A stretch of 64,000 bases of DNA from NCBI RefSeq assembly GCF_006345805.1, contig NC_042998.1, positions 132,742,001 to 132,806,000 on the forward strand. The letters are read 5' to 3'. Made by a program: the position numbers. Of the stretch, positions 63,018 to 64,000 are shown one piece after another (the stretch's first letter is position 1; every line of letters starts with the position of its first letter). The stretch comes from Octopus sinensis (Eukaryota).

Positions 63018-64000
63018 TTATTGTCAATTCTAAATGTGAAACTGTAGCGTAATACTCCTCTTTTACCGAATGGCATTTGGTAAACGTCCCCTTCGTATGT
63101 TTTTGCAAAAAGAAAAAAATAATAATAATAATGATAAATAAATAAATAAATAAATAAAACAAGAAGAAAAAAGAGGAAAAGAAACGTTATTTTAATGAAA
63201 CAGAAGCTAATTTCAAGTGATGGCTTAATATTATTTTCTTATTCCATATTAGCGATGGGAAACAGTATTAGTTCCGAACACTAATAGTGGATATATTCTT
63301 TTCTCCTCTAGGGACAAGGCCTGAAATTTTTAGGGAGGGGCCCAGTCGATTAGATCGACTCAGTACGCAATTGGTATTTAATTGATCGACCCCGAAAGGA
63401 TGAAAGGCAACGTTGACCTCAGTGGAATTTGAAATCAGAACGTAATGGCAGACGAAATACCTATTTTTTACTACTCACAAGGGGCTATACACGGAGGGGA
63501 CAAACAAGGACAGACAAAGGGGTTAAGTCGATTATATCGACCCCAGTGAATAACTGGTACTTAATTTATCGATCCCGAAAAGATGAAAGGCAAAGTCCAC
63601 CTCGGCGGAATTTGAACTCAGAACATAAAGACAGACGAAATACCGCTAAGCATTTCGCCCGGCGTGCTAACGTTTCTTATTTATTTATTGCCCACAAGGA
63701 GCTAAACATAGAGGGGATAAACAAGGACGGACAAAGAGATTAAGTCGATTACATTGACCCCAGTGCATAACTGGTACTTAATTTATCGATCCCGAAAAGA
63801 TGAAAGGCAAAGTCGACCTCGGCGGAATTTGAACTCGGAACGTAAAGACAGACGAAATACCTGTTTCTTTACTACCCACAAGGGGATAAACACAAAGAGG
63901 ACAAACAAGGACAGACAAACGGATTAAGTCGATTATATCGACCCCAGTGCGTAACTGGTACTTATTTAATCGACCCCGAAAGGATGAAAGGCAAAGTCGA

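What the first reader, a model, noticed from the sequence alone, without database searches (positions are those of the whole stretch)
63295..64000. Self-targeting SINE arrays: Tx1-tailed units join at fixed nucleotides inside the SINE's own tRNA-like head
Seen: three junctions read tail|GGTATTTCGTCTG (4184/4185, 63462/63461, 63862/63861), the same position between the A and B boxes, at two loci 59 kb apart. A fourth reads tail|AGAAACGTTAGC (63678/63677), just after the A-box start. Units differ from each other by many substitutions, and in both arrays the last unit has the other tail type, so this is not simple tandem slippage. No orphan second head is left upstream in the dimer. Established: Tx1-clade endonucleases are often sequence-specific (Tx1L into Tx1D transposons, Keno into U2, Mutsu into 5S, Dewa into tRNA arrays). 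Inference: the Tx1 endonuclease nicks existing SINE B copies and the new copy's 5' end is joined by homology, so it inherits the resident Pol III promoter. Each new unit also brings a new target site, giving a self-seeding array system.
Basis: partly seen in the sequence, partly recalled or inferred. Interest (0 to 1): 0.88.

Follow-up and report, generated by a model that had tools for sequence, protein, structure and literature searches.

The report
Head-to-tail SINE arrays, fixed junctions
Copies of one short retrotransposon are joined head to tail at the same nucleotide, the tip of a hairpin in the element's front part, which may mean new copies prefer to land inside old ones, but one 64-kb window cannot separate that from two ordinary alternatives.

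Summary
Three read A-tail|GGTATTTCGTCTG (3 matches, 0 expected) and one reads A-tail|AGAAACG. Both arrays end in a unit with the other (B) tail, and the complete dimer has no orphan head.

New facts:
- The A tail matches the 3' end of an L1-superfamily LINE in the window. That LINE lies inside a (TATC)n microsatellite. Its Tx1 clade could not be tested.
- The shared junction nucleotide is the first base of the 3' arm of a predicted 29-pair hairpin in the SINE head.
- The whole dimer, not its first unit, is flanked by a 14/15 target-site duplication.
- One of two solo A-tailed copies has a perfect 10-bp duplication that starts with GGTAT.
- No tool supported a tRNA-like head or A/B boxes.

All junctions keep a complete tail, so reverse transcription made them. 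Three routes remain:
- one-event template switching at a hairpin pause site, about 0.27
- spread of multimeric masters, about 0.2

The Alu self-insertion hotspot, SINEU-3 tandems and site-specific template-switch chimeras are published precedents. This is at most a new variant of a known kind.

The parts
3956..4184 (+). Dimer unit 1: full-length SINE with A tail (5' end +/-2 nt)
   Evidence: The tail ends ...GTAGTAAAGAAATA at 4184.
4185..4353 (+). Dimer unit 2: SINE from GGTATTTCG (alignment column 52) to the end of the B tail
   Evidence: tailB nhmmer E=2.7e-15.
3941..3955 (.). Upstream copy of the TSD of the whole dimer, ATATGCGTGTATATA
   Evidence: It matches 4354-4368 at 14 of 15 bases. 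4 of 2000 random flank pairs reach this score.
4354..4368 (.). Downstream copy of the TSD of the whole dimer, ATATGCGTATATATA
63862..64000 (-). Array unit a: A-tailed unit, 5' part cut off by the window end
   Evidence: It is closest to the solo copy at 41033-41260 (129/138) and to dimer unit 1 (127/134).
63678..63861 (-). Array unit b: starts at GGTATTTCG, A tail (variant ...GGGCAATAAATAAATA)
63462..63677 (-). Array unit c: starts at AGAAACGTTAGC (column 19), has an uninterrupted column-52 site, A tail
63298..63461 (-). Array unit d: starts at GGTATTTCG, B tail. The 3' flank begins AATATATCC.
41033..41260 (+). Solo A-tailed SINE flanked by the perfect 10-bp TSD GGTATACCGA (41023-41032 and 41261-41270)
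   Evidence: 3 of 2000 random pairs reach it.
53839..54061 (-). Solo A-tailed SINE flanked by the perfect 11-bp TSD GATAATGATGA
   Evidence: 2 of 2000 random pairs reach it.
31965..36003 (-). LINE whose 3' end carries the A-type tail. It has APE, RT and zf-RVT domains and one frame break, and lies inside (TATC)n (31835-31964 and 36004-36098).
11460..11666 (+). Solo full-length B-tailed SINE followed by (ATT)n
51522..51702 (-). Solo B-tailed SINE, 5'-truncated near column 28. TSD GATATAAATA, with a 9-nt filler at the 5' junction.
   Evidence: 9 of 2000 random pairs reach it.
15917..16063 (+). Solo B-tailed SINE, 5'-truncated at column 69, inside (ATT)n

Best explanation
The arrays are head-to-tail concatemers of one LINE-dependent SINE family, and reverse transcription made their junctions.

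Most likely route: A-tailed copies, mobilised by an L1-superfamily LINE that shares their tail, integrated preferentially into resident copies of the same SINE. The entry point is a hot spot at the tip of the long hairpin in the SINE's front part (5' of GGTATTTCG). Older B-tailed residents therefore sit at the 3' end and younger A units stack up on the 5' side.

Shown:
- the junction positions
- complete tails at every junction
- the shared LINE/SINE tail
- the hairpin position of the junction
- the TSDs

Inferred:
- The junctions arose by integration into DNA rather than by template switching.
- The cause of the preference is open: endonuclease sequence preference, nicking of the hairpin or cruciform tip, or annealing of a GGUAU... 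read-through 3' extension of array-born transcripts to the nicked target.
- In the complete dimer the upstream half of the resident was lost. This happened either by homology-guided 5' joining or by later collapse of the two adjacent heads.
For: 1. All 4 junctions, like the 2 solo copies, end at the same tail position (...AAATA or ...AACA) with no lost or added bases. This points to normal initiation by the tail-specific reverse transcriptase rather than DNA recombination.
2. All 4 units that sit 5' of a junction carry the A tail. None of the 4 carries the B tail. Both array-terminal units carry the B tail.
3. Independent test: the solo A copy at 41033-41260 inserted into unique DNA with the TSD GGTATACCGA. 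The first 5 bases equal the in-SINE site, and that 5-mer occurs at 0.00088 per position. This is 1 of 2 solo copies. The other solo TSD is GATAATGATGA.
4. The unit types at the three GGTATTTCG junctions differ. They are A1 tail|B-tailed unit with TGTCTTTA, A1 tail|A-tailed unit, and A3-like tail|B-tailed unit with TGCCATTA. This argues for more than one origin.
5. The B-tailed terminal units carry more private substitutions than the A units over columns 52-172. Values are 6/118 and 4/119 for the B units, against 0/74, 1/119, 2/119 and 3/119 for the A units. This fits older residents.
6. The LINE that carries the tail lies inside (TATC)n on both sides, which suggests a target-selective family.
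7. Precedents: the Alu self-insertion single-nucleotide hotspot (PMC2836564; abstract, section 13 and Discussion passages read), and the Tx1-mobilised, target-specific SINEU-3 with tandem insertions (PMC4494074; passages read).
Against: 1. The only complete array (3956-4353) has one TSD around both units (14/15) and none around unit 1 (best 6-nt repeat with a mismatch; 375 of 2000 random pairs reach it). It has no orphan head. Plain nested insertion predicts an orphan head plus a duplicated site, so this route needs an extra step.
2. Unit 1's head is A-type from at least column 23. There is no trace of a resident head.
3. The bases 5' of the nick are not shared between the in-SINE sites (TTAGC|, CTGGC|) and the solo targets (CTTGT|, ACGAC|).
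4. The fourth junction (|AGAAACG) and the second solo TSD (GATAATGATGA) do not fit GGTAT.
5. At least 4 uninterrupted column-52 sites remain in the window.
6. The GGTAT support rests on one insertion, and I noticed it after seeing the data.
7. The private-substitution contrast is confounded. B copies are more heterogeneous as a family: solo B copies show 3/101, 9/117 and 12/115.
8. The SINE site shows no significant likeness to the LINE's own (TATC)n target (31 of 300 shuffles reach the score).
Confidence: 0.38

Rival explanations
1. One-event chimeras made by template switching. Reverse transcription primed at a genomic nick on a B-tailed (or A-tailed) SINE RNA stops at a fixed point. That point is the tip of the head hairpin, either a pause site or the 5' end of an RNA cut in the apical loop. 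The enzyme then jumps to the 3' end of an A-tailed SINE RNA, once or several times. The whole concatemer is integrated with a single TSD.
For: The complete dimer has one 14/15 TSD around both units, none around unit 1, and no orphan head. Its 3' junction (B tail|ATATGCG...) looks like the other B-type targets, which start (G)ATAT, AATAT or ATTAT.

The recurrent junction base is the first base of the 3' arm of a predicted 29-pair hairpin. Both distinct junction sites follow GC (TTAGC|GG and CTGGC|AG).

Published precedent is PMC2104539 (abstract and section 9 read). In Magnaporthe, LINE chimeras switch at the same nucleotide in independent events, with consensus GCC*A/U next to predicted hairpins. 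They show single and double switches, no microhomology, and one 14-bp direct repeat around a tripartite element.
Against: All 4 acceptor units are A-tailed and none is B-tailed, although in 2 of 4 cases the first template was B-tailed. Acceptors are copied from exactly the normal tail end. For a transcript that ends at a downstream terminator, that is not its physical 3' end. This last point is inference from general Pol III biology.

This route does not explain the GGTAT start of the solo copy's TSD, unless array-born read-through RNA guides priming. None of the 3 truncated solo copies ends at either junction site; they start near columns 12, 28 and 69.
Confidence: 0.27
2. Descent from multimeric master elements. 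A dimer (A unit | unit from column 52 with B tail) arose once or a few times, by either route above, and then spread as a composite SINE. The fixed junction is inherited, and the second array is a rearranged or extended derivative.
For: There is a single TSD around the dimer. The dimer and array units c|d align end to end at 84.7% over 385 nt. The dimer and units a|b align at 91.1% over 259 nt across the junction. Both values are within the range seen between solo copies (88-91% over columns 52-172). Composite SINE families are common; this is recalled, and one search gave a passage in PMC4758252 that mentions dimeric and trimeric SINEs.
Against: Unit types at the three like junctions differ. 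The unit after the junction carries a B tail at one locus and an A tail at the other. The A1 units inside arrays share no derived base against the solo copy. Array unit a is as close to the solo (129/138) as to dimer unit 1 (127/134). Units b and c and dimer unit 2 contain TTTT in the body, which would hinder Pol III read-through. That effect is inference, and these copies need not be masters. The GGTAT TSD of the solo copy stays unexplained unless the solo came from an array transcript.
Confidence: 0.2
3. DNA-level events created the junctions: unequal crossing-over, replication slippage or microhomology end joining between neighbouring SINE copies.
For: Tandem Repeats Finder reports a 217-bp period, 1.8 copies, 90% matches over 63462-63861. 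Units b and c are 95% identical over columns 52-172 (113/119), so some local homogenisation or duplication is possible. A separate 91-bp local duplication exists at 15769-15950.
Against: Every junction joins a complete tail to the next unit with no loss of tail bases. Units b and c start at different columns (52 and 19). Their tails are only 50/64 identical although their bodies are 113/119 identical (Fisher p=0.002 with the counts entered). The same junction occurs 59 kb away between different unit types.
Confidence: 0.05

Closest known systems
Alu self-insertion hotspot (Levy, Schwartz and Ast 2010, PMC2836564)
   Same: A SINE inserts in sense orientation into copies of its own family at a single nucleotide. 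The paper reports position 133 and 15,759 sense self-insertions. This gives tandem-like SINE clusters. The site is explained by the partner LINE's nicking and priming rules.
   Different: The Alu cases are 'exact' nested insertions with both halves of the target kept, and they depend on poly(A)/poly(T) annealing. Here the tail is a specific LINE-derived sequence. The site is a hairpin tip, not an A-rich linker. The one complete array keeps no upstream half.
Tx1-mobilised SINEU-3 with target-specific tandem insertions (Kojima 2015, PMC4494074)
   Same: A SINE driven by a target-selective LINE of the Tx1 clade lands repeatedly at one site and forms tandem copies.
   Different: The SINEU-3 target lies in a DNA transposon (Mariner-N4_AMi), not in the SINE itself. 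Its tandem copies sandwich a TSD. Here no duplicated site lies between units, and the LINE's clade is unproven.
Template-switch chimeric retrocopies with site-specific switching (Gogvadze et al. 2007, PMC2104539)
   Same: A full copy of one RNA is fused directly to a 5'-truncated copy of another. The same nucleotide recurs in independent chimeras. The switch motif ends in GC(C), hairpins are predicted nearby, double switches occur, and one TSD bounds the whole.
   Different: Those chimeras join unrelated RNAs (WEIRD, Mg-SINE, MGL LINE). Here all parts are units of one SINE family, and only one tail type serves as acceptor.
Composite (dimeric or trimeric) SINE families
   Same: Two SINE-derived modules in tandem that move as one element with one TSD.
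   Different: Composite families have a fixed unit order and shared diagnostic bases. The three like junctions here join different unit types. This comparison is recalled, apart from the passage in PMC4758252.

Membership tests
LINE-dependent SINE with a LINE-derived ('stringent') tail | Short non-coding repeat flanked by variable target-site duplications | tested here: met
   Units are about 165-230 bp. TSDs are 10/10, 11/11, 10/10 (with filler) and 14/15. Between 2 and 9 of 2000 random flank pairs reach these scores.
LINE-dependent SINE with a LINE-derived ('stringent') tail | 3' tail shared with an autonomous LINE of the same genome | tested here: met
   The A tail matches the 3' end of the LINE at 31965-36003(-). 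blastn gives 83% over 42 nt at E=9e-7. nhmmer gives E=3.3e-7. No LINE with the B tail is in the window: all 5 tailB hits are SINE units.
tRNA-derived SINE | Head related to a tRNA, with Pol III A and B boxes | tested here: not met
   ARAGORN found 0 genes. Rfam found 0 matches at gathering score and no tRNA match at E<=10 in two heads. Box consensus scans gave chance-level counts and did not pick out the proposed B-box segment. The head folds as one long hairpin, not a cloverleaf. Decayed copies were tested, not a consensus, so ancient tRNA origin is not excluded.
Tx1 clade of non-LTR retrotransposons (the partner LINE) | APE-type endonuclease, reverse transcriptase and a C-terminal zinc-binding region | tested here: met
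   Pfam gives Exo_endo_phos 8.4e-14, RVT_1 4.6e-19 and zf-RVT 5.8e-8. The best solved relative is human L1 ORF2p at 1.6e-43. These features are shared by the whole L1 superfamily.
Tx1 clade of non-LTR retrotransposons (the partner LINE) | Placement inside the Tx1 clade in an RT phylogeny with reference elements | not testable with these tools
   No reference LINE protein set was available.
Tx1 clade of non-LTR retrotransposons (the partner LINE) | Target-selective insertion (common in the clade, not universal) | tested here: inconclusive
   The single LINE copy has (TATC)n on both sides. The five (TATC)n/(TAGA)n-type tracts listed sum to about 730 bp, roughly 1.1% of the window (my sum). This is one copy only.
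Site-specific nested self-insertion (Alu-hotspot type) | Both halves of the resident element flank the insert, with the site duplicated | tested here: not met
   The dimer has no upstream half and no TSD around unit 1. The second array cannot be judged because the window ends inside its first visible unit.
Site-specific nested self-insertion (Alu-hotspot type) | The same sequence preference is seen at insertions outside the element | tested here: inconclusive
   1 of 2 solo A copies has a TSD that starts with GGTAT (frequency 0.00088 per position). The other starts with GATAAT.
Template-switch chimeric retrocopy | A full 5' component fused directly to a 5'-truncated 3' component, with one TSD around the whole | tested here: met
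   The dimer at 3956-4353 has a 14/15 TSD at 3941-3955 and 4354-4368. This is untestable for the second array.
Composite SINE amplified as a unit | Copies share unit order and diagnostic substitutions | tested here: inconclusive
   Only two loci are available. The unit after the junction carries different tails at the two loci, and the A1 units share no derived base against a solo copy. Overall identity is within the family range.

The most novel reading that the evidence does not exclude
A SINE carries, at the tip of its own head hairpin, the preferred entry point for new copies of itself. Each A-tailed copy that lands there is resolved on the resident's homologous head, so no orphan head remains, and it brings a fresh entry point. 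Arrays then grow 5'-wards from an old resident. The preference may come from a structure- or sequence-selective L1/Tx1-type endonuclease. It may also come from read-through array transcripts whose GGUAU... 3' extension anneals to the nicked target.
Probability: 0.3. Interest if true: 0.6.

Novelty: new variant of a known kind. Interest (0 to 1): 0.4.

Why it matters
If integration into the SINE's own hairpin tip is real, this would be a non-poly(A) counterpart of the Alu self-insertion hotspot. It would show how a stringent-tail SINE can build arrays and create new composite elements. It would also give a natural substrate for testing whether an L1/Tx1-type endonuclease reads DNA structure or DNA sequence.

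If template switching is the cause, the locus is a clean example of a nucleotide-precise reverse-transcriptase stop or RNA break at a hairpin tip, with up to three jumps in one event.

Either way, repeat annotation of this genome should treat these arrays as concatemers rather than as separate truncated insertions.

Tried and rejected
- tRNA origin and Pol III boxes: ARAGORN, Rfam at gathering score over the window, Rfam at E<=10 on two heads and consensus scans gave no support. The only Rfam hit was a chance-level SNORD45 match (E=9.3).
- The SINE site as a mimic of the LINE's (TATC)n target: the best local match is the 8-mer GTCTGTCT, and 31 of 300 shuffles reach its score. Rejected.
- Mosaic reading of dimer unit 2: it is 95% identical to array units b and c over columns 52-126. 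The solo B copy at 15917-16063 has the same body type, so no recombination is needed.
- Age ordering from private substitutions: it suggests B-tailed terminal units are older, but it is confounded by the greater heterogeneity of B copies and by different comparison sets for bodies and tails.
- Hairpin covariation: 0 of 29 pairs show compensatory change. The hairpin is therefore a thermodynamic prediction only. Z-scores are -3.67, -1.79, -1.78 and -0.51 for four heads. The junction regions themselves do not fold unusually well (z -0.80, -1.03, +1.50).
- Literature searches: five searches found no description of these arrays. PMC4824008, PMC4758252, PMC13282606 and PMC3747384 were read only as keyword passages and added nothing on arrays. 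The 'Dewa' match was an author name in the reference list.
I saw no text for Mutsu or Dewa. Kojima and Fujiwara 2004 was not read.
- The organism was not determined. The window has no N. Nothing was taken for human.
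Full report
WHAT IS THERE.

The window is 64,000 bases with no N and 63% A+T. It holds 12 units of one short interspersed element (blastn; sequences; alignment A1; nhmmer). All units share a front part and a core (...TTTGCCTTTCATCCTTTCGGGGTCGATAAATTAAGTACCAGT...). 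They end in one of two unrelated tails.
- The 'A' tail reads ...TTAATCCGTTTGTC..GTTTAGCCCCTTGTGGGTAGTAAAGAAATA and occurs in 6 units.
- The 'B' tail reads ...CTGGTCTCCTCCCCCAAAATTTCGGGCCTTGTGCCTAGAGTAGAAAAG and occurs in 5 units.
- One old copy (about 16700-16878, minus strand) has neither.

The units are arranged as follows.
- Solo A copies lie at 41033-41260 (+) and 53839-54061 (-).
- Solo B copies lie at 11460-11666 (+, full length), 15917-16063 (+, starts at alignment column 69) and 51522-51702 (-, starts near column 28).
- The other six units form two head-to-tail arrays.
- Array 1 is a dimer at 3956-4353 (+).
- Array 2 has four visible units at 64000-63298 (-), and the window end cuts its first unit.

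Three read A-tail|GGTATTTCGTCTG, at 4184|4185, 63862|63861 and 63462|63461. One reads A-tail|AGAAACGTTAGC, at 63678|63677. A 21-mer across the first type has 3 matches at up to 3 mismatches, and 0 of 100 shuffles gave any match. The uninterrupted version of the site (GCTTAGCGGTATTTCGTCTG) has 4 matches at up to 3 mismatches. Both arrays end with a B-tailed unit that starts at GGTATTTCG. Units differ substantially, at 74-96% identity over columns 52-172. No head fragment precedes the dimer.

WHAT THE TAIL IS.

The last ~50 nt of the A tail match the 3' end of a 4,039-bp element at 31965-36003 (-). blastn gives 83% over 42 nt and nhmmer gives E=3.3e-7. Its reading frame has one break. It encodes an APE-type endonuclease, a reverse transcriptase and a zf-RVT zinc region. 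Its closest solved relative is human L1 ORF2p (E=1.6e-43, residues 6-653 against 19-673).

It is therefore an L1-superfamily LINE. Whether it belongs to the Tx1 clade cannot be decided without reference elements. This copy has (TATC)n on both sides (31835-31964 and 36004-36098). The (TATC)n/(TAGA)n-type tracts listed sum to about 730 bp, or about 1% of the window by my sum. That hints at a target-selective family, from a single copy. No LINE with the B tail is in the window.

WHAT THE HEAD IS.

I could not reproduce 'tRNA-like'.
- ARAGORN found nothing.
- Rfam found nothing at gathering score and no tRNA at E<=10 in two heads.
- Generic A- and B-box consensuses, which I recalled, match at chance level.

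Instead the first ~80 nt fold into one long hairpin (z-scores -3.67, -1.79, -1.78 and -0.51 for four copies). A consensus fold of six heads gives 29 pairs around a 4-nt apical loop (TAGC, TATC or TAAT). No pair shows compensatory change, so this is a prediction only.

The G that begins GGTATTTCG is the first base of the 3' arm, directly after the loop. So the 'fixed nucleotide' is the hairpin tip. The loop region reads TTAGC, and by eye AGC could be read as an anticodon. I did not test this.

TARGET-SITE DUPLICATIONS.

Each candidate was scored against 2000 random flank pairs.
- Solo A copy 41033-41260: GGTATACCGA, 10/10, reached by 3 random pairs.
- Solo A copy 53839-54061: GATAATGATGA, 11/11, reached by 2.
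- Solo B copy 51522-51702: GATATAAATA, 10/10 with a 9-nt filler, reached by 9.
- The whole dimer: ATATGCGT[G/A]TATATA, 14/15, at 3941-3955 and 4354-4368, reached by 4.
- Unit 1 of the dimer alone has no duplication. Its best repeat is 6 nt with a mismatch, reached by 375.

Two conclusions follow. First, the dimer sits in the genome as one integration unit, or it was built inside a resident element that already had that duplication. Second, one of the two solo A insertions went into unique DNA at a site that starts with the same five bases as the in-SINE site. GGTAT occurs at 0.00088 per position.

HOW THE JUNCTIONS WERE MADE.

Every junction joins a complete tail to the next unit. The tails end ...ATA or ...ACA, as in the solo copies, and no bases are lost or added. 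That is the signature of reverse transcription starting at the normal tail end. It is not the signature of crossing-over or end joining.

Units b and c of the second array are 113/119 identical in the body but only 50/64 in the tail, and they start at different columns. A simple tandem duplication therefore does not explain them, although some local homogenisation may have occurred. Three routes remain.

For:
- Only A-tailed units sit 5' of junctions (4 of 4), and B-tailed units are terminal (2 of 2).
- The solo copy's TSD starts with GGTAT.
- The three like junctions join different unit types.
- Terminal B units carry more private substitutions (6/118 and 4/119) than A units (0/74, 1/119, 2/119, 3/119). 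This contrast is confounded by the heterogeneity of B copies.
- The LINE looks target-selective.

Against:
- The dimer lacks the orphan head and the internal site duplication that plain nesting predicts.
- Unit 1's head is A-type from at least column 23, so there is no trace of a resident head.
- The bases 5' of the nick differ between in-SINE and solo targets.
- The fourth junction and the other solo TSD do not fit GGTAT.

The second array could be ordinary nested insertions whose orphan heads lie beyond position 64000. That cannot be seen here.

The Alu self-insertion hotspot is a close precedent, at position 133 with 15,759 sense cases (PMC2836564; abstract, section 13 and Discussion passages). 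So are the tandem insertions of the Tx1-driven SINEU-3 (PMC4494074; passages).

ROUTE 2: ONE-EVENT TEMPLATE SWITCHING.

The single TSD and the missing orphan head are predicted directly. The switch point at a hairpin tip fits. Both distinct sites follow GC (TTAGC|GG and CTGGC|AG), which matches published behaviour. In Magnaporthe, LINE chimeras switch at identical nucleotides with consensus GCC*A/U beside predicted hairpins. They show single and double switches, and one 14-bp repeat bounds a tripartite element (PMC2104539; abstract and section 9).

Against:
- Acceptors are always A-tailed and are copied from the exact tail end.
- The solo GGTAT duplication is unexplained unless array transcripts with a GGUAU... 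3' extension guide priming.

ROUTE 3: MULTIMERIC MASTERS.

The dimer aligns with units c|d at 84.7% over 385 nt and with units a|b at 91.1% over 259 nt across the junction. Both are within the family range. However, the unit after the junction has different tails at the two loci. The A1 units in arrays also share no derived base against a solo copy.

WEIGHING.

I put route 1 at about 0.38, route 2 at 0.27, route 3 at 0.20, and DNA-level origin at 0.05. The ranking depends noticeably on one datum, the GGTAT duplication, which I noticed after seeing the data.

These are the Tx1 clade, a sequence-specific nick, homology-joined 5' ends and inheritance of the resident promoter.

NOVELTY AND SCORE.

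Self-insertion hotspots, target-specific SINE tandems, nucleotide-precise template switching and composite SINEs are all in print. The new element would be a stringent-tail SINE whose own hairpin tip is the recurrent joining point. Five literature searches found no description of it, within a library that lacks most subscription journals and with supplements closed. I rate it a new variant of a known kind, with interest 0.4. The decisive test is a genome-wide junction, TSD and orphan-head census, which needs the genome and could not be run here.

Noticed in passing
window 31835-31964 and 36004-36098, flanking the LINE at 31965-36003(-): A 4-kb L1-superfamily LINE sits inside a (TATC)n microsatellite, with the repeat on both sides. 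This suggests a microsatellite-targeting LINE family. It is one copy only.
   Followed up: partly
window 13039-15749(-) and 19888-22342(-): Two further LINE fragments have reverse-transcriptase domains, one also with zf-RVT. The second runs into (AAT)n at 18861-18970, and related 3' fragments near 11780 and 12460 also end in (AAT)n. I did not determine their clade or any link to the B tail.
   Followed up: no
window 15769-15950: A 91-bp unit is duplicated (2.0 copies, 98% matches). It consists of (ATT)n plus the first 33 nt of a 5'-truncated B-tailed SINE. This is a local DNA-level duplication unrelated to the tail junctions.
   Followed up: partly
window 3958-4045, 41034-41117, 53982-54063(-), 11463-11546: The SINE's front ~80 nt form a near-palindrome predicted to fold into a 29-pair hairpin. 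nhmmer even finds the head on the opposite strand of the full-length B-tailed copy at 11460-11666 (11518-11486, E=0.022).
   Followed up: yes
window 11666/11667, 16063/16064, 4353/4354, 51522/51521, 63298/63297: All 5 B-tail 3' junctions are followed by A/T-rich sequence that starts ATTAT, ATCATC(ATT)n, ATATG, GATAT or AATAT. Two run into (ATT)n. The B-tail partner seems to prefer AT-rich targets, unlike the A-tail junctions, 5 of 6 of which are followed by G.
   Followed up: partly
window about 41400-41600(+), 29772-29841(+), 47749-47804(-), 150-400(+): These are weak core matches to older or related SINE-like repeats (E=3.6e-5 to 0.018; sequences). They include an old B-like copy ending in (ATA)n about 190 nt downstream of the solo A copy, and a second family with ...GATAGAATAAGTACT...GGGGTCGATT....
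   Followed up: no
window 4150-4215(+) and 63830-63895(-): The A tail contains a small stem-loop (GCCCC TTGT GGGT) just before its end. The LINE's tail has a similar one (AGCC CTGTGT GGCT). This could be the element the reverse transcriptase recognises. It was seen by eye and in the fold, and not tested.
   Followed up: no
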